From: a phage
Sequence record: PZ445540.1
Length of the DNA: 40,233 nucleotides
Direction: 5' to 3' (one strand)
Shown piece after piece: positions 6,645-38,429 of the stretch (positions are counted from its first letter, which is position 1; every line of letters starts with the position of its first letter). The notes under the pieces are model-generated. The model searched no databases and was not told the DNA's origin. It was given only the letters and a program-made list of their open reading frames with translations. The position numbers were made by a program, and so were the translations under genes.

Positions 6645-7028
6645 ATGAAGAATATTAAAAATCTCGCCCTGGCTAAGATGTCGGGTTTTCGTCATAAGAC
6701 GGTCGCCGTTCCTGAGTGGGAAGGCGTCAAAGTGGTTCTCCGTGAGCCGTCAGGTGAAGCCTGGCTGCGCTGGCAGGAGGTGGTGAAATGGGGTGCCGAC
6801 GATGAAAATGTGTCGGTATCGGAAAAGGCGCACCGTAATCTTTGCGCTGACGTGGTGCTCTTCATTGACGTCCTGTGCGACACCGATAAGCAACCGGTAT
6901 TCAGCGTAGACGAAGAAGAGCAGGTGCGTGAAATCTACGGCCCCGTCCATTCACGCCTGCTCAAACAGGCTCTTGACCTGATCAACAATGCGGACGAAGC
7001 GCGGGAAAAGTCTCAACCCCCGGCGTAA
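6645..7028 (+). CDS. tail assembly chaperone (G-like)
   Basis: 127 aa acidic protein directly upstream of a -1 frame ORF and the tape measure region. Confidence 0.55.
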   Translation: MKNIKNLALAKMSGFRHKTVAVPEWEGVKVVLREPSGEAWLRWQEVVKWGADDENVSVSEKAHRNLCADVVLFIDVLCDTDKQPVFSVDEEEQVREIYGPVHSRLLKQALDLINNADEAREKSQPPA

Positions 7029-7036
7029 AGTTTCTG

Positions 7037-7315
7037 ATGTCGCTTGCGCTCCGGATGGGGCGCACGCTCTCAGAGCTTCGGCAGAATATGACGGCAAGCG
7101 AGCTTCTGATGTGGATTGAGTACGACAGGCAAAGTCCGGTTGGCGATATTCGTGGTGACATTCAGGCAGCTCAGCTCGTCTCTGCCATCTACGGCTCGCA
7201 GGGGGCAAAAGTACCGCTGGACGATGCGATCCTGCGCTGGGGTGGTGATGAGCAATCAGAACCGAAGGACCAGTTTGCAGGACTTGAGGCTGCACTTACA
7301 GCTGCAACTCAGTGA
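7037..7315 (+). CDS. tail assembly chaperone partner (T-like)
   Basis: 92 aa ORF in the -1 frame relative to the upstream chaperone, with its own ATG; G/T-like arrangement. Confidence 0.4.
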   Translation: MSLALRMGRTLSELRQNMTASELLMWIEYDRQSPVGDIRGDIQAAQLVSAIYGSQGAKVPLDDAILRWGGDEQSEPKDQFAGLEAALTAATQ

Positions 7316-7368
7316 CAAATGAACTACAAAATAATAGGATTATTTTTTTTAATGATTTGGTGAAGGCA

Positions 7369-7662
7369 ATGAAAAAACTAGTCTTATTTGTATTATTTTT
7401 TGGTTTCAGTTGTGTTTCAAATGCAACTCAAACACTGGCTCCATTAGAACCAAATGATTTGCAAAGCTATACGTCTACGATTTGCTCTGATCATGCAAAT
7501 CCTGAATTGTGTAAAAAGGCTTTTTTTAAATTCATGGGCTATATAAAAACAAACGATGATTACTACTATTTCTGTCAAAAGCAAAAAGAGGCAGGGATGA
7601 CGATTAATAAAGATTCATGCAATAAATCGGAAGCTCTGAGAGAATTTTTAGACAAGCCATGA
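7369..7662 (+). CDS. small secreted Cys-containing protein (moron)
   Basis: Internal ATG at 7369 gives MKKLVLFVLFFGFSCVSNA signal peptide; mature ~78 aa with 4 Cys; ~32% GC versus ~52% for the phage; own terminator downstream. Confidence 0.5.
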   Translation: MKKLVLFVLFFGFSCVSNATQTLAPLEPNDLQSYTSTICSDHANPELCKKAFFKFMGYIKTNDDYYYFCQKQKEAGMTINKDSCNKSEALREFLDKP

Positions 7663-7680
7663 GGTTTATATCACAACAAA

Positions 7681-7705
7681 AAGCCCGTTGATGGGCTTTT
7701 TTTTT
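7681..7705 (+). terminator. intrinsic terminator after the moron
   Basis: aagcccgttgatgggctt followed by TTTTTTTT. Confidence 0.65.
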
Positions 7706-7718
7706 CGCCTGGAGAAAA

Positions 7719-10700
7719 TTGATGGCAACATTACGTGAGTTAATAATCAAAATTTCCGCTAACTCGCAGTCATTCCAGTCGGAAATTTCCCGCGCCTCAC
7801 GCATGGGGCAGGATTATTACCGAACCATGCAAAATGGCGGTCGGCAGGCTGCCGCTGCCGCCCGAGAGAGCGAAAGGGCGTTATCTGATCTGACCGCTGG
7901 GTTTGCATCGGCAGGAAGAGCCGCTGCTGCTGCTACGGCCGCTTTTGCGACTGGTAAGCTCGTGCAGATTGCTGATGAGTGGAATTCAGTAAACGCCCGT
8001 CTTAAGCAGGCATCATCTTCAGCTGATGATTTTGCTGCCTCTCAGCGCCAGTTAATGGAAATCAGCCAAAGAACTGGCACCGCGTTTTCAGACAACGCAA
8101 ACCTTTTTTCACGCGCAGCTGCTTCAATGCGTGAGTTTGGGTATAGCTCTGACGAAGTTCTGAAAATTACCGAAGCTGTTTCTACCGGCCTTAAACTTTC
8201 GGGGGCTAATACTCAGGAAGCGAGTTCTGTTATCACTCAATTCAGCCAGGCTCTGGCGCAGGGCGTTCTTCGCGGTGAAGAATTCAACGCCGTTAACGAA
8301 GCAGGTGATCGTGTTATCCGCGCACTTGCCGCCGGAATGGGCGTGGCCCGCAAAGACCTGAAGAGCATGGCTGACCAGGGGCAACTTACGATTGATAAGG
8401 TTGTTCCTGCATTAATGAGCCAGTTGGGCTCATTACAGGGTGAGTTTGCCAGCATGCCGCAAACAGTTTCCGGATCCCTGCAAAAAGTCACAAACTCGTT
8501 CATGGCATGGGTTGGAGGTGTCAACCAGGCTACAGGTGCTACCGATGCGCTATCTGGTGGCCTAGACGGAGTTGCCCAAACGCTTGATTCATTTACCTCT
8601 TCGGCAGTAAGCGGCGCACTAAGTGATGTTGCAGACAATATGTCCACGATCACAACAGTGGCGGGTGCACTTGTTGGCGTTGGGCTGGCAAGGTATCTCA
8701 GTGGAGTAGTAACTAGCGCCACGAGCGCAACCGGCGCGCTAATTTCTGCGGCTAAGTCAGAGGTTGCTCTTGCCGTTGCACAGGATAAGGCTGCACAGTC
8801 TGCCGTTGCCGCCTCAAGGGCGGAGGTTTATAGGGCTCAGCAAGCTGTACAGAGATCGCGTAGCGCAGATGTTCAGGCTGCGCAGCAAGAGAAAATTGCT
8901 GCGGCAGAAGCAAAAGTCACTGCAGCCCAGGCCAGGCTGACTACCGCTCTAGCCAGCGGTTCTGCTACAGAGAAAGTCAGGGCCAGAACTGCACTTGAGC
9001 GTGCACAGGCAGGGCTGGTGGCTGCAAAAAATTCTGACGCTCAAGCTGCTGCAGAAAGGCGTCTGTCCGCGACCCAGGCTTCCTTAAACCGGAACCTTGC
9101 AAACCGTGTTTCGGCTCAAAGCAATCTCAATAGCGTGACATCCGTCGGCACTCGGCTCATGAGTGGTGCACTTGGTCTCATCGGTGGAGTTCCTGGTTTA
9201 GTTATGTTGGGTGCTGGAGCCTGGTATGCGATGTATCAAAACCAGGAGCAGGCACGTCGCTCTGCCCAGGAATACGCCAGTCAAATCGACGAAATACGAG
9301 AAAAAACTTCCCGCATGTCTTTGTCTGAAACAGACGACAATAGGGGGAGAACTGTTGGTGCTCTGGTAGAGCAAAATCGTTTGGTTGATGAGCAAGCCAA
9401 AAAGGTTGGTGAGCTGAAGAACCAGATCGACGATTTGAATGCATCGCGTGGAAAACCGGGCATTACCAGCGAGAACGATGCAAATATACTGAGAGCGATA
9501 GCTATCGTTACGGATCAACTTGCTGTTGAAGAGGGAAAATTAAATGACATGCGAGATAAATCTCGCGGCATACAGCAGGCTCTCGAAGAAATTGAGCGAC
9601 GTCGCAATGATTTAATACGCGAACAAGCCTGGCGACAGAATGCGGTATATCAGTCGATGATCATGATGAATGGTCAGCATACTGAATTTAACCGTCTGCT
9701 GGGGCTGGGAAATCAGCTATTAATGGCCCGGCAAGGGCTGGCGAACGTCCCTCTCAGACTTCCTCAGGCCGACCTCGACAAAAAGCAAACCGATGCCCTC
9801 GAAAAGAGCCGTCGGGATCTTGAGTTGTCACGCCTGAAGGGTGAGGCCAAAGAGCGCCTGCGTCTGAGTTATGCAGCCGATGACCTGGGGTTAACCAGTG
9901 ATCCGCAATTCCAGACAGGCCGTCAGGAGTTGATTAATAACGGTCTTGCTGAATGGCGGAATAATGAGGCCAACAAACCTAAGGCGAAGGGTGGTAAAAC
10001 CGAAGGCGAGAAAACCGAGGATGTGTATAAGCGCCTTATCAAGCAGCAAAAAGAGCAGATTGCCCTGCAAGGCCAGAATACTGAACTGGCGAAGGTTAAA
10101 TACCAGGTCAGCCAGGGCGAGCTTGCTTCTCTGACAGAAGCCCAGAAAAAGACGGTATTGCAGAATGCTGCGCTCATTGACCAGGTTAAATTGCGTGAGC
10201 AACTGCGAAATTACGAAGCCAACCTTGCTGACAGTAACGCCAGCGCCCGCGCAGCCAATGAAGCGCAACTGCTGGGCTATGGGCAGGGAACCAGGTTCCG
10301 TGAAAGACTTCAGGAGCAGTTCAATCTGCGTAAGGAGTTTGAGCAGAAGAATACCGATCTTCTCCGCCAGCGTCAGGCTGGTGAAATCGACGAGACGTTC
10401 TATCAGCAGGGGCTGGCACTTAATAAGCGCTACCTCGAAGAGCGCCTGCGCGACCAGGAGGGATATTACGCAGCTTCTGATGCTCAGCGTGACGACTGGA
10501 TGACGGGACTGTCTGAGGGTTATGCGAACTGGGTGGACGAAGCCACTGATTATTCTTCCATGGCCGCTGACGGCATGAAGCAGGCCATGGGTGGCGCGGT
10601 CACCACGATCACCGACATGCTCAATGGCAACGTTGACAGCTGGAAGGACTGGGGCGTGAGCGTACTGAAGATTATCCAGAACGTTCTGGTGAACATGGCT

Positions 10701-11198
10701 GTTGCTAATGGCGTCAGCTCAATTGGATCACTGTTCAGTTTTGGTGCCTCGTCAGCCGCAACCGCCAGCAGCGGTACCGCTATTCAGAATGCTGGCGCGA
10801 ACTTCACATTTAATGCGAAGGGTAATGTTTACGACTCTCCGTCCCTGAGCGCTTACAGCAATGGCGTTTTCCAGACGCCTCAGCTGTTTGCTTTTGCCAA
10901 AGGCGCAGGGGTTTTTGCCGAGGCTGGGCCGGAAGCGATCATGCCACTTACCCGCGCGCCGGATGGTTCTCTCGGCGTTCGTGCGGTCGGAGGTGGCGGC
11001 GGTCAGTCTGTATCTTCGGCGCCACAGGTTTATATCACCATCGATGGCAACGGCAACACTCAAACACAGGCCTCGCCAGGCCTTGAGCAATTTGGTGCCG
11101 AGGTCGGGGAATTTGTTGATCGACGTTATAAGCAGAATGTGATGCGTGACATTCGTCCCGGCGGCGACATCTGGAACGCAATGAAAGGAACCCGATAA
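7719..11198 (+). CDS. tail tape measure protein
   Basis: 1159 aa, Ala/Gln-rich coiled-coil protein with C-terminal Gly-rich segment; canonical position. Confidence 0.9.
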   Translation: MMATLRELIIKISANSQSFQSEISRASRMGQDYYRTMQNGGRQAAAAARESERALSDLTAGFASAGRAAAAATAAFATGKLVQIADEWNSVNARLKQASSSADDFAASQRQLMEISQRTGTAFSDNANLFSRAAASMREFGYSSDEVLKITEAVSTGLKLSGANTQEASSVITQFSQALAQGVLRGEEFNAVNEAGDRVIRALAAGMGVARKDLKSMADQGQLTIDKVVPALMSQLGSLQGEFASMPQTVSGSLQKVTNSFMAWVGGVNQATGATDALSGGLDGVAQTLDSFTSSAVSGALSDVADNMSTITTVAGALVGVGLARYLSGVVTSATSATGALISAAKSEVALAVAQDKAAQSAVAASRAEVYRAQQAVQRSRSADVQAAQQEKIAAAEAKVTAAQARLTTALASGSATEKVRARTALERAQAGLVAAKNSDAQAAAERRLSATQASLNRNLANRVSAQSNLNSVTSVGTRLMSGALGLIGGVPGLVMLGAGAWYAMYQNQEQARRSAQEYASQIDEIREKTSRMSLSETDDNRGRTVGALVEQNRLVDEQAKKVGELKNQIDDLNASRGKPGITSENDANILRAIAIVTDQLAVEEGKLNDMRDKSRGIQQALEEIERRRNDLIREQAWRQNAVYQSMIMMNGQHTEFNRLLGLGNQLLMARQGLANVPLRLPQADLDKKQTDALEKSRRDLELSRLKGEAKERLRLSYAADDLGLTSDPQFQTGRQELINNGLAEWRNNEANKPKAKGGKTEGEKTEDVYKRLIKQQKEQIALQGQNTELAKVKYQVSQGELASLTEAQKKTVLQNAALIDQVKLREQLRNYEANLADSNASARAANEAQLLGYGQGTRFRERLQEQFNLRKEFEQKNTDLLRQRQAGEIDETFYQQGLALNKRYLEERLRDQEGYYAASDAQRDDWMTGLSEGYANWVDEATDYSSMAADGMKQAMGGAVTTITDMLNGNVDSWKDWGVSVLKIIQNVLVNMAVANGVSSIGSLFSFGASSAATASSGTAIQNAGANFTFNAKGNVYDSPSLSAYSNGVFQTPQLFAFAKGAGVFAEAGPEAIMPLTRAPDGSLGVRAVGGGGGQSVSSAPQVYITIDGNGNTQTQASPGLEQFGAEVGEFVDRRYKQNVMRDIRPGGDIWNAMKGTR

Positions 11199-13038: not shown

Positions 13039-13560
13039 ATGAGGAATGTTTTAATTTTAGCGTTTGTCACATTTTTGTTTGGCTGCACTGAAAGAGCGCG
13101 ACCAGCAGATGAAATCGATCATGAAAGTGGACTGGTTAAAATATTCAGCACTAAAAATTTTAATACTGCGCAAGATAGGGCTGATATTCTTTGCGGCAAA
13201 AAATCATATTATGTGAAAGCTCTTCATGAAAGTAATTTGGTACTTTTAAGAAACAACCTCTCCGACGTATATTTGTTCGATTACATTCCTTTTCAGTGTG
13301 AGCTGAAAGCTGCCGCAAACGCGGGAAACTCTGAAGCTAAAGCGCTCTATGACAAAAAACTTACTGATGCATATCGTAATCTTGAAGAGTCTAAAAGAAA
13401 TCAGTACGAAGCGCATAAAGCTTATGCCAAAAAGCATGGGATTGATTCATATAGCACAGTAAACCCTGATGGCAGCATAGAGGCTCACACCATAGATTCC
13501 AGCGGTAACGCTTGTCATAGCACTGTCGGTATATATGGAGGGGAAACAGTCTGTGACTAA
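13039..13560 (+). CDS. lipoprotein of unknown function (moron)
   Basis: 173 aa; N-terminal signal with lipobox LFGC; ~38% GC; inserted between the K-like and I-like tail genes. Confidence 0.5.
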   Translation: MRNVLILAFVTFLFGCTERARPADEIDHESGLVKIFSTKNFNTAQDRADILCGKKSYYVKALHESNLVLLRNNLSDVYLFDYIPFQCELKAAANAGNSEAKALYDKKLTDAYRNLEESKRNQYEAHKAYAKKHGIDSYSTVNPDGSIEAHTIDSSGNACHSTVGIYGGETVCD

Positions 13561-13597: not shown

Positions 13598-14176
13598 ATG
13601 ACAGAAAATATGACTCAAATTGAACTCGGTGGCATTCTGGGTAAAACATTTGGGAAAATGCACTACCGGCTTATTAGTAAGACCAGTGAGGCTACTCGCA
13701 GTTTAGCGGCAACACTGGACGGTTTTGAGAAGTTTATGATCTCCAGCCAGCGGAGGGGATTAACATATGCTGTTTTTAAGGGTAAGAAAAATATAGGTCT
13801 GGATGATTTAGGCTTTCCAGTTTCCGGTGAAGTAATCCGGATTGTCCCTGTAGTAATAGGAAGTAAAAAAGCGGGATTACTGCAAACAATTCTCGGAGCG
13901 GTATTAGTGGTAGTGGGTGTGGTTACCTCTGCATATGGTGGAGCACCATTGATCGGCGCAGGTATTGGTATGATGGCTGGTGGTATCGTCCAAATGCTAT
14001 CCCCTCAGCCAACCGGACTGGCCAGCAAGCAAAGTGCAGATAACCGCGCATCATACGCGTTCGGTGGAGTGACAAACACCGCTGCTCAGGGCTACCCGGT
14101 ACCGCTGCTTTATGGTCGCCGGCGAATCGGTGGGGCAATTATTTCCGCCGGAATTTATGTCGAGGATCAGCAATGA
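13598..14176 (+). CDS. tail assembly protein (lambda I-like)
   Basis: 192 aa; position between the K-like gene and J; Gly-rich hydrophobic C-terminal half. Confidence 0.65.
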   Translation: MTENMTQIELGGILGKTFGKMHYRLISKTSEATRSLAATLDGFEKFMISSQRRGLTYAVFKGKKNIGLDDLGFPVSGEVIRIVPVVIGSKKAGLLQTILGAVLVVVGVVTSAYGGAPLIGAGIGMMAGGIVQMLSPQPTGLASKQSADNRASYAFGGVTNTAAQGYPVPLLYGRRRIGGAIISAGIYVEDQQ

Positions 14177-21547: not shown

Positions 21548-22840
21548 CTACTGCGCTACTAACATGCCTTGGGGCAGCGATGGGGCAAAGCGTGAAAGCG
21601 CCTGGTTAAGCAGAGAAACCTGTTCGGCACTCTTCTCTGACATCCACTTTCCATACACTTTGTAAACCATCTGAGCATCTGTATGCCCCATCTGAGTTGC
21701 TATAAAGTTTGGGTTTGCCCCAGCTGATAATGACCAGCACGCATAAGTGTGTCGTGACTGGTAGGCGTTGCGGTACCGTATTCCGGCGCGCTTGATTATC
21801 GGGGCCCAAATTTTATTAATCGAATTAACCGCGTAGTGATATCCTCTACGAGGCCCATGCTTGACGCATTGAGGACTGAAAACGAAAGTGCAGGGGTGTA
21901 TGACTGACTGGCCATATTCCCGCAATTTCACTTCAATCTCATACTGCCGGCCAAGGCGCGTCAGCTGGGCCTGATTCCTCAGGGCATCAATAGCTGGTTG
22001 AATGAGATAAATCACCCTGTCAGTGCCTGCGTCGGTTTTTGGCAGGGTGAACTCATTCGTCTGGGTAAGGTTGCGTTTCACTGTGATGGTTCCGGCATGC
22101 AGATCGATATCTTCCCACGCCAGACCGCACAACTCCCCATGCCTCATTCCAGTATAGACTGCCAGCGACCAGAGATTTCTCATCTGCTGGTGGCCGCAAG
22201 CCTGGATAAACCGGATAAACTCTTCTGTCGTGAGTGGGTCTGGTTCACCTTTCGCTTTTTTGAGACGGTTAATTCCGCTAAACGGGTTTTCCTTTGCGTA
22301 GCCGTTATCAGCTGCAAACTGGAAGATCTCGGCCATCAGCATCATGTAATTATTCACGGTCGAAGACTTCCTGCCTTGAACCTGTGTCCGGTGATCCTTC
22401 TTCATTACATGAAAACCCGTCAGCAACTCCTTTCTCACGTACAGCAAATCCTCAGTGGTCACCGCAGAAACCATTTTGTTTTCGCCGATGCGCGGAAGCA
22501 TGTTTTTTATGATGGATTCGTAACGACTCATAGTGTTAGAGCTGATTTCCATCCTCTTCAGCTCAGACCACTTTTCGGTAAGCTCCAGCACAGTAATTTC
22601 CTTTCTATCCTGACCGAACCGGGCAAGGTTCGGTGAGTTTGGGAATTTTTCCGCATAGTCAAAATTTCCCATCCTTATCGCAAAACAAACTGAAGAACGC
22701 AGCTCACCAGCTATCTTGCGATTTTTTGCAGTGTCAGGGACACCGAGGTTTTCCCTGACACGTTTACCTTTATACAGAAACCAGATGCGGAGCGAACCGC
22801 CGTGGTTTTCGACGCCTGTCGGGTATGATGCATTAGCCAT
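21548..22840 (-). CDS. int: tyrosine integrase
   Basis: Start set at ATG 22840 (RBS AGGAGGG), 430 aa; C-terminal catalytic region with 'HTYACW' motif typical of tyrosine recombinases. Confidence 0.9.
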   Translation of the reverse strand: MANASYPTGVENHGGSLRIWFLYKGKRVRENLGVPDTAKNRKIAGELRSSVCFAIRMGNFDYAEKFPNSPNLARFGQDRKEITVLELTEKWSELKRMEISSNTMSRYESIIKNMLPRIGENKMVSAVTTEDLLYVRKELLTGFHVMKKDHRTQVQGRKSSTVNNYMMLMAEIFQFAADNGYAKENPFSGINRLKKAKGEPDPLTTEEFIRFIQACGHQQMRNLWSLAVYTGMRHGELCGLAWEDIDLHAGTITVKRNLTQTNEFTLPKTDAGTDRVIYLIQPAIDALRNQAQLTRLGRQYEIEVKLREYGQSVIHPCTFVFSPQCVKHGPRRGYHYAVNSINKIWAPIIKRAGIRYRNAYQSRHTYACWSLSAGANPNFIATQMGHTDAQMVYKVYGKWMSEKSAEQVSLLNQALSRFAPSLPQGMLVAQ

Positions 22841-22884
22841 TGATCCCTCCTGACGTCCAGGAGCGTGGACGAGTGTACTGCTTT

Positions 22885-23139
22885 TCATGCTGTCTTCGCA
22901 CCTGGTTGATTTTTTTTCTGCGCCTCGATCCACTGATCAACGGCTTTTCTGTTGTACATGCATTCGCTCGAAGGCTTTGGATTGCCATCGGGTGAGATGT
23001 GCAGGTACTCGCGGCCCAGCATCCAGGATTCTTTTCTGGCGCGGGTGATGGTTCCGGGCTTGAGCCCGGTAACCGCAATCAGAACCTTTTCGCTAACCCA
23101 GTCATTCGGCACCAAAAGAACAACATCGCTCATACCCAC
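22885..23139 (-). CDS. xis: excisionase-like DNA-binding protein
   Basis: 84 aa; immediately upstream of and overlapping the int reading frame; RBS GAGGTG. Confidence 0.55.
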   Translation of the reverse strand: MGMSDVVLLVPNDWVSEKVLIAVTGLKPGTITRARKESWMLGREYLHISPDGNPKPSSECMYNRKAVDQWIEAQKKNQPGAKTA

Positions 23140-27000: not shown

Positions 27001-27423
27001 TTACTTATTGAATTCGATCTTGTCCGCTTTAGAGCTAATAATGCTCTGCATTTCATCCAGTTTTTGGGAGACGAGACTTAAAACCCCAATTGAGTTTGAT
27101 TCTGTTGGTATATCATCCATTGAATTATAAACGGCAAGCTTACAATCGCCGATATCACAAGCCCAAGAGTTAAGTTGATTAGCTAGCGCTGTTAGCGACT
27201 CTAATTTTTGTCCCCGTTGACACTCAGCTCCAGCATGGATGCTAAGTTGCTCCACATACTCGTAAGCAGTTTGGCTGGTCTTTAGCATAGAACGAATCAG
27301 GCAGGAAATTGTGTTATCGGCTTCCGGTGAAAATTCATTTATGCGGTAAATAACCTCCAGTAACGAAGCATTCTCAGTGATTTCCGCAGCAATATCATTT
27401 AGCATTTCGATTGGATTTTTCAT
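27001..27423 (-). CDS. hypothetical acidic protein (second gene of the pL operon)
   Basis: 140 aa; ~40% GC; start overlaps the upstream stop by 1 nt. Confidence 0.45.
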   Translation of the reverse strand: MKNPIEMLNDIAAEITENASLLEVIYRINEFSPEADNTISCLIRSMLKTSQTAYEYVEQLSIHAGAECQRGQKLESLTALANQLNSWACDIGDCKLAVYNSMDDIPTESNSIGVLSLVSQKLDEMQSIISSKADKIEFNK

Positions 27424-27623
27424 TATCGTTTATCCCATTCATTTTTATGGGCCTCGTTTGCATAGTTGCAGGCAAACGCGAGAAGAATGTCGCTAATTTC
27501 TCTATACTCGTCATCATCAACCGCCGATAACAAACTAGCTGCTTCAACAATCAAGGACATATTCTTGAAGGCATCACAAGGATGGATGGACAACCCCTTA
27601 AATGTTTTTATCTTCTGAGACAT
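27423..27623 (-). CDS. hypothetical small protein (first gene of the pL operon)
   Basis: 66 aa; just downstream of the OL-like operator cluster; not Arg-rich, so not an N-like antiterminator. Confidence 0.4.
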   Translation of the reverse strand: MSQKIKTFKGLSIHPCDAFKNMSLIVEAASLLSAVDDDEYREISDILLAFACNYANEAHKNEWDKR

Positions 27624-27668
27624 TTTCTATCACCTCTGAGTTGATTTGATAGAATGATGATAGAGCCT

Positions 27669-27716
27669 GCTATTGGTCTTTGCAATAGGTATTGCTATTT
27701 AAATTGCTATTGATTT
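27669..27716. promoter_or_regulatory. OL-like operator cluster
   Basis: CTATTGgtctttgCAATAG inverted repeat plus two ATTGCTAT half-sites; same motif family as at OR. Confidence 0.55.
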
Positions 27717-27956
27717 TTATGTCATTGATATCAAAAATGAAAAAATCTATTGCTGATGTGTTTGTAACAGCACGGTAGAAATAATTGTCCTTTAGACAGT
27801 GATCTACCAATACATGAGATATCGGGAGTTGGAGCATCGAAGCTTGAGAATAAAATGGACTGTGAAAGGGCGAGATACTCGCAGAGAGAAAGAGGGTAGG
27901 AGTTCCGATCAGGTAGTTGCCCGCCTGGTTGACTGGTGGTTACTATTGTGGGGGCA

Positions 27957-28036: not shown

Positions 28037-28744
28037 TCACCCATGCTTCCTGTAGGTCTGCGGCATGCTGCCGATCACCTTTCCGAAGATGAAAATTTTG
28101 TTCATCTCTTCCTTCTCGATTGGTTCCCATGGTAGATAGGTATGGTTGTCAGAGATAACTAAGAGTTTGTCTTTCATCTTTTGTAAGCGCTTAACATGCG
28201 ATGTGTCATCGTAGATGAACGCGTATATACCGTCGCCGTCGAAATGCTGAACGCTGATATCGACGAAGAGTAAGTCCCCTGGCTCTATGGTGCCAGACAT
28301 GCTATCGCCTCGAACGTTGATGATGCGTATCTGCTCCTGTTTCCGGCCATTAAACATTTGACGGGCATCTTCAACTGAGTATTCCACGGAGCGCAGCACC
28401 TCCACGAATTCGCTGTTAATTATGCCCGGGCCAGCACTTACGGTAAGGTCGAGTACGTCAACTCTGAAGATGGCTGGATCTTTTTTGTTATTCATCGGTG
28501 GGGGTGGTTGTTGGTCGTCACCCCTCATTGGTCCAGTACCGTTTGATAGCCACTCCGAACGAACACCCAGGGCATTAGCTATTTCAACGATTTTAGTTGT
28601 GCCTCTAGCATTTCCAGATGTTATTCGCCATATGGTTGGTTGTGCCATATTCGCCGCTTTGGCTAACTGACCCTGGCTCATGCCCATCTCATGCATTGCG
28701 TAGTTAAGTCTGTCAGCTAGCGTCTTAAGTGTTCTCTCTTGCAT
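28037..28744 (-). CDS. cI: CI-type repressor (HTH + S24 LexA-like peptidase domain)
   Basis: Start at ATG 28744 with GGAGG RBS, 235 aa; N-terminal HTH ('MSQGQLAKAANMAQPTIWRI'); C-terminal 'GDSMSGTIEPGD' Ser and 'HVKRL' Lys of the autocleavage dyad. Confidence 0.85.
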   Translation of the reverse strand: MQERTLKTLADRLNYAMHEMGMSQGQLAKAANMAQPTIWRITSGNARGTTKIVEIANALGVRSEWLSNGTGPMRGDDQQPPPPMNNKKDPAIFRVDVLDLTVSAGPGIINSEFVEVLRSVEYSVEDARQMFNGRKQEQIRIINVRGDSMSGTIEPGDLLFVDISVQHFDGDGIYAFIYDDTSHVKRLQKMKDKLLVISDNHTYLPWEPIEKEEMNKIFIFGKVIGSMPQTYRKHG

Positions 28745-28782
28745 ATTTATAGCCTCCGCTATCACATTCTAGTCAAGCATGA

Positions 28783-32187: not shown

Positions 32188-33003
32188 ATGGAACTTGAAG
32201 CATCACTAAAACACTTTAGCCCTCAGGGTATGCACATCAGCGACGACGTGAAAGGAACCTCTCCGGACCGCCTTACAGGAACAGATGTAATGGCGGCGAT
32301 TGGCACCACCAGCAGCCGTGCGCGCTTCGGCCTGGCGGCGTTCTTCGGTAAAGCGGGAATCAGCAAAACCGATGAACAGCTCGCAGTTCAGGCGCTGGCG
32401 CGATATGCGATGGATGTCGCACCGAAGAATGTTCGCAAAGCAGCTGGTGGCCAGTTCGGATGGTGTATGCAGATGCTGGCGCAATTTGCCTTTGCTGATT
32501 ATTCCCGTTCGGCGGCTACCAGCGTGACGTGTCACAGCTGCAGCGGTACCGGACGAACAACCCGCGAGCAGATTACCCGCAAGGTTTCGTACCCATGGGG
32601 TAAAGCTCCATACTGGGCCTGCCGCTCTCGTGCTGTTCGACCGTCTGACTGGGAGCAGTGGACGGAGGTAACAGAGGTTGTACCGGCGGTCTGTGATGCT
32701 TGCGATGGCATGGGAACGATCAGCGCCCGTTGTCGTTGCGGCGGTAAAGGCGAGGTTCTAGACCGCAAAGCGACTAAAGACCGCGGCGCACCGGTTTTCA
32801 AAACGTGTGAACGTTGCTCTGGTAATGGCTTCTCTGCTATCTCCTCGGCGACGGTACACCGTGCCATTCTGAAGCGTCTCCCGGACCTTCATCAGTCCTC
32901 ATGGTCACGCAACTGGAAACCCTTCTATGAAATGCTGGTGGACACTTTGCGTCAGGGGGAGCGTCATGCTGCTTTAGAATTTGAGAAGGCAACAACTTAT
33001 TGA
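32188..33003 (+). CDS. Cys-rich protein with four DnaJ-type CxxCxGxG repeats (possible late-gene antiterminator)
   Basis: 271 aa; CSGTGR, CDGMGT, CGGKGE, CSGNGF repeats; sits where lambdoid Q genes sit, upstream of the late leader and lysis genes. Confidence 0.45.
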   Translation: MELEASLKHFSPQGMHISDDVKGTSPDRLTGTDVMAAIGTTSSRARFGLAAFFGKAGISKTDEQLAVQALARYAMDVAPKNVRKAAGGQFGWCMQMLAQFAFADYSRSAATSVTCHSCSGTGRTTREQITRKVSYPWGKAPYWACRSRAVRPSDWEQWTEVTEVVPAVCDACDGMGTISARCRCGGKGEVLDRKATKDRGAPVFKTCERCSGNGFSAISSATVHRAILKRLPDLHQSSWSRNWKPFYEMLVDTLRQGERHAALEFEKATTY

Positions 33004-36473: not shown

Positions 36474-37931
36474 ATGCAGGTCACTATTGATGGTGTCCCA
36501 TACGCTCCCGCCAGCGTCGTTTCATCACGGATCGGCATTGCCATTTCGACGCATCAGCGTGCAGACGTTTTAAAACGAGCACTCGAACAGCACATGAAGC
36601 ATCTTCCCGCCGGCGCGCTGGTGGTGGTTGTCGATGATGGTTCAAAACCTGCAGCGGTAGTTCCCCACGGCGTGCAGCTGCTTCGCCATGAAACATCACT
36701 CGGCATTGTTGCTTCGAAGAACACCAGTCTGTCAGCCTTGATGGATGCCGGGTGCGAGCATCTTTTTCTGTGGGATGATGATGCCTGGCCGATTGCTGAT
36801 AACTGGCACCTGCCTTACATCGAATCACCCGAGCCACACCTGGCTTACCAGTTTCTCGATCTTGCTGGCACGAACAAGCTGAATGACCTTTCGGTGCTTT
36901 ACCGTGACGATCAGCATGTGGCGTACACCGGGCAGCGCGGCGTGATGCTTTATTACCACCGCAGCGCCATCGAGAAGGTAGGCGGATTCGATCCGGTTTA
37001 TGGCCGGGGCATGTATGAGCACAGCGACCTCGCCTTGCGCATCCATAACGCAGGACTGACTACGTGGGCTTACGCTGATGTCCTCGGTTCAGAAAAGCTG
37101 ATTCATTCCCTTGATGAGCATGAAGCCGTAGAGCGTTCGGTACCGAAACCAGATCGACAGGCGCTGGTAGAACGTAACGTTAAAATCCATAACGAACGGC
37201 GCGATGCCGGGTTTACCGGTTCCGTGGATTATCGGCGGCAGCGCGACGTGGTTATCACTACTCTGCTGACCAGCCAGTCAGATCCGCAGCGCGGTACGAA
37301 AATGTCCGCCGCACCTGACATGCTGACCCGTTGGGCTTCCTCGCTTCGGAATTGTGGTCGTATCGCGCTGGTGGATGAACTGCAGACGGCACCGGCAGAC
37401 GTTGAGCTGTATCGCGTTCCTGACGTGAAGATGAATGTCTACTTCCGGCGATGGCTGCATATCTGGCAGCACCTGCGTGATCATCCTGAATACCGGTTCG
37501 TCTGGTGTACCGATGGTACAGATGTCGAAATGCTCCGCGCACCGTGGGAAGAAATGCAGCCCGGTACTGTTTACGTCGGTTCTGAACCGAAGACCTACGC
37601 CGACACCTGGGCAAAGCAGAATCATCCTGAGCGTATCTATCAGGAGTTCATCGAAGCGCACCGCAACGATGTGATGCTAAACGCTGGTCTGCTGGGTGGT
37701 ACCCGCGCTGATGTAATGGCGTTTGCCCACGGCATCATCCGTCTTTACTACCGGATCGAGAGTTATCGTTTCTGGAAGAAAGAACAGGCTGGCGCCGCGG
37801 TGGGGGATATGATCGCTTTTGGCATTGTTGCTAAGTCTTTTGGCGATCGCATTGTCACCGGACCGCGCATCCATACAGTGTTTAAGTCAGAAGGAATCGG
37901 TAAAGAGTACGCATGGTTCAAACATAAGTAA
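36474..37931 (+). CDS. glycosyltransferase (family 2-like GT-A N-terminal domain + unknown C-terminal domain)
   Basis: 485 aa; 'GIAISTHQR...LVVVVDDGS' nucleotide-sugar-binding motif and 'FLWDDDAWP' DxD-like motif; no TM segment. Confidence 0.7.
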   Translation: MQVTIDGVPYAPASVVSSRIGIAISTHQRADVLKRALEQHMKHLPAGALVVVVDDGSKPAAVVPHGVQLLRHETSLGIVASKNTSLSALMDAGCEHLFLWDDDAWPIADNWHLPYIESPEPHLAYQFLDLAGTNKLNDLSVLYRDDQHVAYTGQRGVMLYYHRSAIEKVGGFDPVYGRGMYEHSDLALRIHNAGLTTWAYADVLGSEKLIHSLDEHEAVERSVPKPDRQALVERNVKIHNERRDAGFTGSVDYRRQRDVVITTLLTSQSDPQRGTKMSAAPDMLTRWASSLRNCGRIALVDELQTAPADVELYRVPDVKMNVYFRRWLHIWQHLRDHPEYRFVWCTDGTDVEMLRAPWEEMQPGTVYVGSEPKTYADTWAKQNHPERIYQEFIEAHRNDVMLNAGLLGGTRADVMAFAHGIIRLYYRIESYRFWKKEQAGAAVGDMIAFGIVAKSFGDRIVTGPRIHTVFKSEGIGKEYAWFKHK

Positions 37932-37944
37932 GAGAGGAAATTAT

Positions 37945-38095
37945 GGTAAGCAAAACACTAGTTAAGAGTAAAAGCGGCAACAAATCTAGTTGCCGCAGCC
38001 AAGAATTTTTCAGAGTGCCTACAGGTAAGATATTTATATCTTCTGCAAGTATTGAAAAATTAGTTTGTTTTTACGGAGTCAAGAATCTTCAGTAA
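37945..38095 (+). CDS. small ORF (50 aa) in AT-rich island
   Basis: Hand-translated MVSKTLVKSKSGNKSSCRSQEFFRVPTGKIFISSASIEKLVCFYGVKNLQ; RBS AGAGGAAA; 3' end overlaps the convergent minus-strand ORF. Confidence 0.2.
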
Positions 38096-38299
38096 AGCTT
38101 CTTTTGCATGAGTGTGAGCCTCAACCATCGACGGGTCACTAACAGAAGTTGATTTAATAAAGTTTGCAATAACTTCTTTGTTGTTTGAGCCAACAACAAA
38201 TGCGCTGAATGTCTGAGCAAGCAGTTCTGTCAGCGCGTAATTTTTGCGTAAAACGTCATCAATCCGTTCAAACTGTTCTGAAACGCTATATCCACTCAT
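38060..38299 (-). CDS. hypothetical protein (AT-rich island, opposite strand)
   Basis: 79 aa ORF on the minus strand inside an otherwise + strand late operon; low GC. Confidence 0.35.
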   Translation of the reverse strand: MSGYSVSEQFERIDDVLRKNYALTELLAQTFSAFVVGSNNKEVIANFIKSTSVSDPSMVEAHTHAKEALLKILDSVKTN

Positions 38300-38429
38300 T
38301 TCCTTTCCTTCGTCAGAGGTAATCAGCCATCACTCTGCACATGTGTGCGCCAGTGTCCCACCACTGACGGGCTGAGTGCTTACCTTAACCAGGGTTAAAG
38401 CGAAGTAACACCCTGATATTCAGACAGTA

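What the first reader, a model, noticed from the sequence alone, without database searches (positions are those of the whole stretch)
7316..7708. AT-rich moron encoding a secreted Cys-containing protein between the tail chaperones and the tape measure
Chaperone genes normally abut the tape measure gene. Here a ~32% GC insert sits between them, encoding a protein with a clear Sec signal peptide (MKKLVLFVLFFGFSCVSNA) and four Cys, followed by its own intrinsic terminator. That is the signature of a lysogenic-conversion gene.
Basis: seen in the sequence. Interest (0 to 1): 0.5.

Follow-up and report, generated by a model that had tools for sequence, protein, structure and literature searches.

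The report
Secreted-protein moron in HK97 gene-15 slot
A temperate HK97-like phage carries, at the exact spot where "morons" were first defined, an AT-rich add-on gene for a small secreted, disulfide-containing protein of an uncharacterised family that probably shields the lysogen against infection by other phages.

Summary
Window 7316-7708 is the lowest-GC stretch of the 40 kb (32.3% against 50.8%). It holds a 97-codon gene (ATG 7369 to stop 7662) with a Sec-type signal peptide, four invariant Cys in the mature part, and a hairpin plus T9 terminator before the tape measure gene.

It sits between the Phage_tail_T chaperone ORF and the tape measure gene. This is the position of HK97 gene 15, the archetypal moron and a known superinfection-exclusion gene.

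In the 80 closest IMG/VR relatives the slot is never empty. It holds one of six unrelated, AT-rich cargos, all envelope-targeted, and two of them are known exclusion families (gp15/YebO-like and Cor).

The window's protein belongs to a rare family of about 24 clusters with no Pfam, NCBIfam or PADLOC match, only a distant link to an unknown-function PHROG. It is under strong purifying selection (dN/dS 0.06-0.31) and is predicted as a four-helix periplasmic domain. In every locus examined, including unrelated tail modules, it lies just upstream of the tape measure gene.

Best reading: a prophage-expressed periplasmic exclusion factor. The function is inferred, not shown. It is a new member of a known kind and of moderate interest.

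The parts
6645..7028 (+). gpG-like tail assembly chaperone gene (left context)
   Evidence: Pfam PF06222 Phage_TAC_1, E 6.6e-59.
7037..7315 (+). T-frame ORF of the chaperone (read in the -1 frame relative to G). Its stop codon TGA 7313-7315 marks the left edge of the slot.
   Evidence: Pfam PF06223 Phage_tail_T, E 2.8e-20. The HK97 homologue is annotated as a -1 frameshift product.
7312..7340 (+). Sigma-70 promoter-like element GTGACA-N17-TAGGAT. The -35 hexamer (7312-7317) overlaps the T stop codon; the -10 hexamer is at 7335-7340.
   Evidence: Found by the scan and is the only match in the window (expected 0.13). The geometry GTGAC[AT]-N17-TA[GT][GCT]AT is kept in 63 of 80 close relatives across four unrelated cargos, with different spacer sequences. 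Function is not measured.
7359..7366 (+). Purine-rich Shine-Dalgarno-like GGTGAAGG ahead of ATG 7369
   Evidence: Read from the sequence. 'ttggtgaag/ttggtaaa' is conserved among alleles.
7369..7662 (+). Moron cargo gene: 97-aa precursor. Signal peptide is codons 1-19 (7369-7425); the mature 78-aa part is 7426-7659; the stop codon is 7660-7662.
   Evidence: ORF. 13 nucleotide alleles give dN/dS 0.06-0.31 with dS up to >1. Four Cys are invariant, and H42, P45, N62, D64, K71 and R91 are >=90% conserved. AF2 model: pLDDT 83.6, above 90 over the mature part, helices 28-39, 45-58, 63-74, 81-94.
7678..7705 (+). Intrinsic terminator: stem AAAAAGCCC / GGGCTTTTT, loop GTTGAT, run of 9 T
   Evidence: Fold. 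Compensatory substitutions among alleles. Equivalent hairpins follow every cargo type and also the empty slot.
7707..7717 (+). GCCTGGAGAAA ribosome-binding block for the tape measure gene (right edge of the slot)
   Evidence: Conserved as GCCYGGAGAAA downstream of family members even where the TMP N-termini are unrelated. Also present with other cargos.
7722..11198 (+). Tape measure protein gene (right context)
   Evidence: Pfam TMP_3, Phage_HK97_TLTM, Tape_meas_lam_C. Homologues start MATLRELI at this ATG.

Best explanation
The region is a moron cassette occupying the T|H slot of a temperate HK97-like (Hendrixvirinae) phage. This slot lies between the tail-assembly-chaperone T ORF and the tape measure protein (TMP) gene, and it is the archetypal moron slot.

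Shown at the sequence or comparative level:
- The DNA is foreign and AT-rich.
- It holds a real gene under purifying selection, preceded by a conserved sigma-70-like promoter and followed by a terminator.
- The product is a Sec/SPase-I-type precursor whose 78-aa mature part is predicted to be a compact four-helix domain with four invariant Cys.

Inferred:
- In the lysogen the cassette is transcribed from its own promoter and stops at the terminator, so the TMP gene stays silent.
- During lytic growth Q-antiterminated late transcripts read through it.
- The protein is exported to the periplasm and oxidised to two disulfides, probably C39-C48 and C69-C84, each stapling one helical hairpin.
- There it acts as a superinfection-exclusion factor against incoming siphophages.

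The most likely mechanism is interference with the periplasmic, TMP-dependent stage of genome injection (channel formation across periplasm and inner membrane). The alternative is jamming of an outer-membrane receptor from its periplasmic face, as Llp and Cor do.

My probabilities, by layer:
- moron in the gene-15 slot: about 0.95
- exported periplasmic protein: about 0.85
- phage exclusion as its function: about 0.5
- the TMP-stage mechanism specifically: about 0.25

The overall confidence given (0.5) is that of the functional claim (phage exclusion).
For: Position and extra DNA. The gene lies between Phage_tail_T and the TMP gene, where HK97 carries gp15, annotated 'moron product'. [quoted passage not shown] A relative with an empty slot exists.

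Composition. It is the lowest-GC segment of the window.

Real gene. dN/dS is 0.06-0.31 with saturated dS. The four Cys are invariant over 20 sequences at about 25% identity, and every member has an n-h-c signal peptide. C15 is lost in some alleles, so it is not a lipoprotein.

Promoter and terminator. Both are conserved.

Temperate, Q-regulated phage. Integrase, CI-like repressor and Q antiterminator are present.

Guilt by slot. In the 80 closest relatives the slot always holds one of six unrelated cargos: two inner-membrane proteins, three lipoproteins and this secreted protein. One cargo is gp15/YebO-like (PF13974) and one is Cor (phrog_1119, E 1.2e-30), both established exclusion families. 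Cargos reassort freely against TMP alleles, which indicates high turnover.

Linkage to the TMP gene. 31 close loci and all 9 examined contexts of distant members (about 25-36% identical to the window protein) place the gene directly upstream of the TMP gene. This includes tail modules with unrelated chaperones (DUF6246) and unrelated TMP N-termini.

Precedents.
- HK97 injection needs periplasmic FkpA and inner-membrane PtsG, and involves the TMP (bioRxiv 10.1101/2025.12.01.691526, citing Cumby 2015).
- gp15 exclusion is escaped by swapping in HK022 tail-tube and TMP genes (PMC10883804).
- The extracytoplasmic Ltp of phage TP-J34 targets the TMP (cited in PMC10883804, PMC3952083).
- Llp acts from the periplasm on FhuA (PMC9586334).
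Against: There is no experimental datum for expression, export, disulfides or any phenotype.

The protein has no detectable homology or fold match to any characterised exclusion protein or defence component:
- Pfam, NCBIfam and PADLOC give nothing.
- BFVD gives nothing.

Slot position cannot discriminate mechanism, because Cor (a receptor blocker) occupies the same slot. Four of the six cargos are themselves of unknown function, so 'guilt by slot' rests on two.

dN/dS is low, with no sign of the diversifying selection often seen in arms-race proteins.

Adjacency to the TMP gene could merely reflect that the site upstream of it is the permissive insertion point in siphophage tail operons.

In one distant locus (L041) the gene follows the preceding gene by 11 nt with no room for its own promoter, so prophage expression is not guaranteed family-wide.
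Confidence: 0.5

Rival explanations
1. A lysogenic-conversion factor that benefits the bacterial host in ways unrelated to phages, in the manner of lambda Bor or Lom. Examples would be envelope stress tolerance, serum or antimicrobial-peptide resistance, or host colonisation.
For: Morons frequently encode such envelope proteins (PMC3594210). The protein is secreted, small and disulfide-stabilised. The carriers are Enterobacteriaceae prophages from Citrobacter, Leclercia, Klebsiella, Salmonella and Pantoea. No homology ties it to exclusion.
Against: The known cargos of this same slot are phage-exclusion proteins. The family is found only in phage tail operons next to the TMP gene and never as a chromosomal gene in the roughly 40 contexts seen. 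It is very rare (about 24 clusters among 5.8 billion; absent from 5,426 E. coli genomes and 72,556 plasmids), unlike widespread fitness factors.
Confidence: 0.2
2. A periplasmic immunity or inhibitor protein that neutralises a periplasm-acting enzyme or toxin. Candidates are a T6SS peptidoglycan-hydrolase effector, a colicin or tailocin component, lysozyme, or the NlpC/P60 tail-tip enzyme of incoming phages.
For: Small, exported, disulfide-stapled helical bundles are a common architecture for proteinaceous inhibitors. One family member weakly hits the plant PME-inhibitor model, itself a four-helix, two-disulfide inhibitor (TIGR01614, E 0.0016). The conserved His42 sits in the C39-C48 segment C-x2-H-x2-P-x2-C between helices 1 and 2. 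Tails of all carrier phages encode an NlpC/P60 protein.
Confidence: 0.12
3. A function in the phage's own lytic cycle rather than in the lysogen. As a late-expressed periplasmic protein it might modulate lysis timing, or stop progeny from wasting themselves on infected cells and debris.
For: The gene is co-oriented with, and embedded in, the Q-dependent late tail operon, so it must be transcribed late. In locus L041 it appears to have no promoter of its own. T5 Llp is a precedent for a 'lytic conversion' exclusion protein (PMC9586334).
Against: The slot is empty in at least one related phage and holds unrelated cargos in others, so it is not an essential lytic function. A conserved promoter plus terminator is the arrangement expected for expression from a repressed prophage.
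Confidence: 0.1
4. Not a functional gene: a decaying remnant or a chance ORF in AT-rich filler DNA.
For: No database annotation beyond 'hypothetical protein'.
Against: dN/dS is 0.06-0.31 over saturated synonymous divergence. The four Cys are invariant. The ORF is intact in 13 nucleotide alleles and in distant relatives. The AF2 model is confident.
Confidence: 0.01

Closest known systems
HK97 gp15 moron (YebO-like inner-membrane superinfection-exclusion protein)
   Same: Identical genomic slot between the T ORF and the tape measure gene in phages of the same subfamily. [quoted passage not shown]
   Different: No sequence relationship. gp15 is 62 aa with one uncleaved TM helix and matches PF13974. 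The window protein is 97 aa with a cleavable signal peptide, a soluble four-helix mature domain and four Cys. The gp15-type slot uses a different promoter, and its T gene ends in TAA.
Cor / T5 Llp superinfection-exclusion lipoproteins
   Same: Small, exported, disulfide-containing phage proteins that act from the periplasmic side (PMC9586334). Cor occupies this very slot in 7 of the 80 closest relatives.
   Different: Cor and Llp are lipoproteins with a lipobox Cys, and they target the receptor FhuA. The window protein has no lipobox (C15 is not conserved), gives no phrog_1119 match, and has a different predicted fold.
Streptococcus phage TP-J34 Ltp
   Same: An extracytoplasmic exclusion protein that blocks DNA injection and whose identified target is the tape measure protein (cited in PMC10883804 and PMC3952083). 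It is the best mechanistic analogue for a TMP-directed block. That Ltp is helical is from my own recollection of the structure paper, not from a source I read here.
   Different: It is a Gram-positive lipoprotein encoded in the lysogeny module, not next to the TMP gene. No sequence or fold similarity was detected here.
phrog_21025 (PHROG family of unknown function)
   Same: 14 of 20 family members match it (best E 4.9e-09), with similar length and register.
   Different: The window protein itself matches only at E 0.055. The PHROG carries no functional annotation, so it adds no mechanism.
Lambda Bor and Lom morons
   Same: Envelope-targeted products of AT-rich morons embedded in or near the late region of lambdoid prophages (PMC3594210).
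   Different: Different loci, and outer-membrane rather than soluble periplasmic products. Their documented roles are in host interaction, not phage exclusion.

Membership tests
Phage moron (sense of Juhala et al. 2000, as summarised in PMC3594210) | Extra DNA between two genes that are adjacent in related phages | tested here: met
   In vB_EcoM-606R7 the T stop and the H start are separated only by a terminator and RBS. Stx-phage relatives also span about 350 nt less. Close relatives carry five other cargos at the same point.
Phage moron (sense of Juhala et al. 2000, as summarised in PMC3594210) | Base composition different from the surrounding genes | tested here: met
   32.3% GC against about 55% in the flanks; the lowest 393-nt segment in the window.
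Phage moron (sense of Juhala et al. 2000, as summarised in PMC3594210) | Own promoter | tested here: inconclusive
   GTGACA-N17-TAGGAT at 7312-7340 is unique in the window. Its geometry is conserved in 63 of 80 relatives across four cargos. Promoter activity was not measured.
Phage moron (sense of Juhala et al. 2000, as summarised in PMC3594210) | Own terminator | tested here: met
   Hairpin plus T9 at 7678-7705 with compensatory changes. Caveat: the empty slot also has a terminator.
Phage moron (sense of Juhala et al. 2000, as summarised in PMC3594210) | Expression from the repressed prophage | not testable with these tools
   Needs RNA-seq, 5' RACE or proteomics of lysogens.
gp15 / YebO-like exclusion proteins (PF13974) | Sequence match to the YebO family and a single N-terminal uncleaved TM helix | tested here: not met
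   No Pfam hit for the window protein or for any of the 20 family members. gp15 itself hits PF13974. The window protein has an AXA-type cleavage site and a hydrophilic mature part.
Cor / Llp exclusion lipoproteins (phrog_1119) | Lipobox with invariant +1 Cys, and homology to Cor | tested here: not met
   'GFSC' is a poor lipobox, and C15 is replaced in alleles L033 and L036 and in most distant members. No phrog_1119 hit.
Sec-exported, signal-peptidase-I-processed periplasmic protein | Positively charged n-region, hydrophobic h-region of 10-15 residues, small residues at -3/-1 | tested here: met
   MKK / LVLFVLFFGFSCV / SNA|T. The same architecture appears in all full-length family members despite low sequence conservation and higher dN in this segment. 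No SignalP run was possible, and export was not shown.
Known anti-phage defence components (PADLOC-DB) | Profile match to a catalogued defence protein | tested here: not met
   None of the 20 members has a meaningful hit.
phrog_21025 (unknown function) | Significant profile match | tested here: inconclusive
   Window protein E 0.055. 14 of 20 relatives match, best E 4.9e-09. This suggests a distant superfamily link.

The most novel reading that the evidence does not exclude
The protein defines a new class of superinfection-exclusion factor in Gram-negative bacteria. It would be a freely soluble, disulfide-stapled four-helix periplasmic protein that intercepts the ejected tape measure protein, or its periplasmic/inner-membrane partners of the FkpA/PtsG type, and so aborts genome injection. 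On this reading its invariable linkage to the tape measure gene across unrelated tail modules reflects a functional pairing. The T|H junction would then be a dedicated, promoter- and terminator-equipped 'exclusion cassette slot' that shuffles at least six envelope-acting cargos.
Probability: 0.25. Interest if true: 0.7.

Novelty: new member of a known kind. Interest (0 to 1): 0.45.

Why it matters
How siphophage DNA crosses the periplasm and inner membrane is still poorly understood, as are the ways prophages block that step. Very few exclusion proteins have a known target.

A small soluble periplasmic protein that acts at this stage would be an easy biochemical handle, through pull-downs and co-structures with TMP fragments, FkpA/PtsG-type partners or receptor plugs.

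The comparative result gives a short, concrete list of candidates to test side by side in one genetic background. It shows one slot with a conserved promoter and terminator, six interchangeable envelope-targeted cargos, and two of those already known exclusion proteins. It also suggests that 'slot-based' mining of tail operons can find exclusion genes that homology-based defence finders miss.

If instead the protein proves to be a host-fitness factor, it is simply one more ordinary moron.

Tried and rejected
Family and structure searches that gave nothing:
- Pfam, NCBIfam and PADLOC scans of the protein and of 20 relatives gave nothing meaningful.
- A PDB sequence-profile search gave only noise.
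- The first AF2 model, from 5 sequences, was poor (pLDDT 61), and its Foldseek PDB search was empty.
- The afdb50 library was not available.

Collection searches that gave nothing:
- The genome contigs pattern scan found no relative among species-representative genomes.
- No match in 5,426 E. coli genomes, in near or distant mode, or in plasmids.
- Among 50,697 phage records only three carry it.
- No gene with exactly the product P0002 is on record in the assembly collection.
- Cumby 2012 (PMC3430355) is not held, so gp15 facts are taken from PMC3594210 and PMC10883804.

Ideas rejected:
- Lipoprotein: C15 is not conserved and the lipobox is poor.
- The 116-aa GTG-initiated ORF used by some gene callers (P0001): frame-breaking indels lie upstream of ATG 7369.
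- A known ncRNA in the AT-rich DNA: the only Rfam hit is SraG at E 0.78, far below gathering.
- Minus-strand ORFs 7444-7584 and 7604-7804: short, and they overlap a gene that is under purifying selection.
- Strict co-variation of cargo with the TMP allele: cargo types D, B and E each occur with two TMP N-terminal clusters.
- Diversifying selection: dN/dS is low throughout.

Full report
**1. The observation**

Window 7316-7708 is 32.3% GC in a window averaging 50.8%. It contains the lowest-GC 393-nt segment of all 40,233 bases, and only 0.03% of such segments are as low.

It contains one convincing gene. The start is ATG 7369 and the stop is 7660-7662, giving 97 aa that begin MKKLVLFVLFFGFSCVSNA|TQT. 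The longer 116-aa GTG ORF from 7312, used by some gene callers (P0001), is not supported, because alleles differ by 1-2 nt indels upstream of ATG 7369.

- a Phage_TAC_1 chaperone gene at 6645-7028;
- a Phage_tail_T ORF in the -1 frame at 7037-7315;
- a 1158-aa tape measure protein (TMP) with TMP_3, HK97_TLTM and lambda-C domains from ATG 7722.

A hairpin with a run of nine T lies at 7678-7705. The consensus terminator scan missed it, and its folding z-score is ordinary. Its pairing is nevertheless kept by compensatory substitutions among alleles.

**2. What phage this is**

The region is 100% identical to Escherichia phage SaltyDalty and 99.7% identical to 'Aeromonas' phage AsXd-1, which is classified in Hendrixvirinae.

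The window itself encodes three regulators:
- an integrase (21548-22933, minus strand);
- a CI-like HTH/S24 repressor (28037-28765, minus strand);
- a Q antiterminator (32188-33003).

It is therefore a temperate lambdoid phage. Its late transcripts are expected to read through terminators, while a repressed prophage could still express an autonomous cassette. That last step is an inference from established lambdoid biology.

**3. The locus is the archetypal moron slot**

In HK97 the same junction carries gene 15, annotated 'moron product', followed by a terminator. PMC3594210 states three things. The first use of the word moron referred to gene 15 between the tail chaperone and tape measure genes. 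Morons have deviant GC and their own promoter and terminator. gp15 is expressed from the prophage and excludes superinfecting phages.

gp15 (62 aa, one TM helix, PF13974 YebO) is unrelated in sequence to the window's protein.

A more distant relative, vB_EcoM-606R7, has no cargo. There the T stop codon is followed directly by a hairpin, a T-run, the block 'cgtccggagaa' and the TMP start. So the terminator and the TMP ribosome-binding site belong to the junction itself, and cargos sit between the T stop and that terminator.

**4. A cassette slot with interchangeable, envelope-targeted cargos**

I fetched the 80 IMG/VR loci whose T protein is at least 97% identical to the window's and extracted the T-stop to H-start interval. 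The slot is never empty (288-565 nt, one of 1630 nt). It holds one of six unrelated cargos, all at 32-44% GC:

| Type | Cargo | Loci | Family match |
|---|---|---|---|
| A | 111-aa protein with two TM helices and a zinc ribbon | 25 | phrog_8436 |
| B | 113-aa lipoprotein | 14 | phrog_2320 |
| C | gp15-like | 10 | PF13974 YebO |
| D | the window's family | 13 | none direct (distant: phrog_21025) |
| E | 121-aa lipoprotein, also in Enterobacter phage LAU1 where it is mis-annotated | 11 | phrog_27124 |
| F | 78-aa lipoprotein | 7 | phrog_1119, 'Cor superinfection exclusion protein', E 1.2e-30 |

A Klebsiella prophage adds a seventh, a 173-aa multi-TM protein.

Every cargo is membrane, lipoprotein or secreted, and two are experimentally established exclusion families.

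Four cargo types (A, B, D, E; 63 of 80 loci) share the promoter geometry GTGAC[AT]-N17-TA[GT][GCT]AT, with the -35 hexamer overlapping the T stop codon and with different spacer sequences. In the window this element is at 7312-7340 and is the only such match. All types end in a hairpin plus T-run.

Cargo types reassort against TMP N-terminal alleles: D, B and E each occur with two TMP clusters. This indicates frequent recombinational exchange.

**5. The protein family**

A word-indexed search found six clusters. An exhaustive HMMER scan of 1.84 billion representatives found about nine true relatives. A profile search found 24 clusters, all labelled 'hypothetical', from Citrobacter, Leclercia, Salmonella and Pantoea. 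A Klebsiella prophage homologue is 52% identical.

The family is absent from 5,426 complete E. coli genomes and from 72,556 plasmids. It is present in only 3 of 50,697 phage records.

In a 20-sequence alignment reaching about 25% identity, C39, C48, C69 and C84 are invariant. H42, P45, N62, D64, K71 and R91 are at least 90% conserved. The motif C-x2-H-x2-P-x2-C spans the end of helix 1, the loop and the start of helix 2. Every full-length member has an n-h-c signal peptide ending in small residues at -3/-1. C15 in the signal peptide is not conserved, which excludes a lipoprotein.

Thirteen nucleotide alleles give dN/dS of 0.06-0.31, with dS often above 1 and higher dN in the signal-peptide codons. 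This is a real gene under purifying selection.

With the deeper alignment AlphaFold2 gives pLDDT 83.6, above 90 over the mature part, with helices 28-39, 45-58, 63-74 and 81-94. From their positions, the Cys pairs probably staple the two helical hairpins. This is an inference, because no coordinates were available.

No informative match exists:
- Foldseek against PDB and BFVD returns nothing.
- Pfam, NCBIfam, PADLOC and a PDB profile search return nothing.
- The only family link is a distant one to phrog_21025, of unknown function.

**6. Linkage to the tape measure gene**

All 31 close loci have the gene between T and the TMP gene.

The same holds for all nine contexts examined for distant members, which are about 25-36% identical to the window protein. 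The gene lies immediately upstream of the TMP gene, with a 55-65 nt gap. The one exception is a locus with a single extra gene in between. This includes tail modules with a different chaperone (DUF6246), different neighbours (KilA-N, Bro-N, DUF2335, YdcA genes) and unrelated TMP N-termini.

Downstream of the gene a common block recurs even there: hairpin, T-run, GCCYGGAGAAA, 4-7 nt, then the TMP start.

The family was never seen outside a tail operon.

**7. Most likely mechanism**

Shown by sequence and comparison: this is a moron cassette in the gene-15 slot, encoding an exported small protein.

Inferred:
- transcription in the lysogen from the 7312-7340 promoter, terminating at 7705;
- read-through in Q-modified late transcription;
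- Sec export, cleavage after A19 and DsbA-type oxidation;
- a role in superinfection exclusion.

The last step rests on the company the gene keeps (gp15 and Cor in the same slot, and all cargos envelope-targeted), on the rapid cargo turnover, and on the restriction of the family to phage tail operons.

Two mechanisms have precedent.

(i) Interference with the TMP-dependent periplasmic and inner-membrane stage of injection:
- HK97 needs periplasmic FkpA and inner-membrane PtsG, and its TMP interacts with PtsG (bioRxiv 10.1101/2025.12.01.691526, citing Cumby 2015).
- gp15 exclusion is escaped by swapping in HK022 tail-tube and TMP genes, and TP-J34 Ltp targets the TMP (PMC10883804).

(ii) Jamming of an outer-membrane receptor from the periplasmic face, as shown for Llp and proposed for Cor (PMC9586334).

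The family-wide adjacency to the TMP gene tilts me towards (i). But Cor in the same slot shows that position alone does not decide.

I put phage exclusion at about 0.5 and mechanism (i) at about 0.25.

**8. Rivals**

| Rival | Probability | Note |
|---|---|---|
| Phage-unrelated host-fitness factor | 0.2 | |
| Periplasmic immunity or inhibitor protein | 0.12 | Only weak hints: one TIGR01614 PME-inhibitor hit at E 0.0016, and the conserved His42 in the Cys39-Cys48 segment |
| Late-cycle phage function | 0.1 | |
| Non-gene | 0.01 | Excluded by the selection data |

**9. Novelty and verdict**

The kind of element and the locus are textbook. The cargo is an uncharacterised, rare protein family, and a soluble periplasmic exclusion factor would be unusual.

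One is the slot-level picture: a conserved promoter and terminator with six or seven swappable envelope cargos. The other is the strict linkage of the family to the TMP gene across tail-module types. I did not find either described in the papers I could search, although that library is incomplete.

Verdict: observation confirmed, interpretation supported, new member of a known kind, interest 0.45.

Noticed in passing
window 13039-13560 (+): A second envelope-targeted moron. It is a 173-aa lipoprotein-like ORF (MRNVLILAFVTFLFGC|TE, lipobox LFGC) in the second-lowest GC island of the window (minimum 36.6%). It lies between the K-like JAB/NlpC-P60 gene (12296-13006) and the I-like gene (13598-14176). 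In AsXd-1 those two genes abut. It matches only phrog_18989, of unknown function.
   Followed up: partly
L052, L088, L091, L092, L111, L112 (T|H interval); L085: A Cor superinfection-exclusion lipoprotein (phrog_1119, E 1.2e-30) occupies the T|H slot in 7 of 80 close relatives. In L085 the slot is 1630 nt and the Cor ORF has an altered C-terminus, which suggests an insertion (possibly an IS) into the cargo.
   Followed up: partly
L005 2150-2205 (phage vB_EcoM-606R7): The empty T|H junction still carries a hairpin (ACCGCttcgGCGGT), a T-run and a 'cgtccggagaa' RBS between the T stop and the TMP start. A terminator inside the tail operon is therefore a backbone feature and not only moron-borne.
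   Followed up: yes
L041, L044, L046, L049, L051 (about 60 nt upstream of the TMP start): The block 'hairpin, T-run, GCCYGGAGAAA, 4-7 nt, ATG' is conserved downstream of family members even where the TMP N-terminal sequences are unrelated. It looks as if the cassette carries the TMP gene's ribosome-binding site with it.
   Followed up: partly
L004 2218-2583 (Enterobacter phage LAU1): The deposited annotation calls a 55-aa ORF (2416-2583). The real cargo is a 121-aa lipoprotein starting at ATG 2218 (MVKILILIIFLIAGC...), the same as cargo type E in 11 IMG/VR relatives.
   Followed up: yes
L041 4989-5001: In this distant locus the family gene follows the preceding gene by only 11 nt, so it has no room for its own promoter. 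It may be expressed only with the tail operon, or from a promoter inside the upstream gene.
   Followed up: no
window 27321-27922 and 37867-38317: Two further low-GC islands (minima 35.1% and 37.4%) hold small minus-strand ORFs (27001-27423, 27423-27623, 27670-27837; 38060-38299) of unknown function in the early/accessory regions.
   Followed up: no
window 36474-37931 (+): A 485-aa glycosyltransferase (phrog_1579, category 'moron/host takeover', E 5.8e-250). It is a possible surface-polysaccharide-modifying conversion gene.
   Followed up: no
L001 (MH178096 'Aeromonas phage AsXd-1'): This record, labelled as an Aeromonas salmonicida phage, is 95-99% identical over the region to an E. coli phage (SaltyDalty) and to prophage-type contigs. 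The family's other carriers are Enterobacteriaceae. The host label looks doubtful.
   Followed up: no
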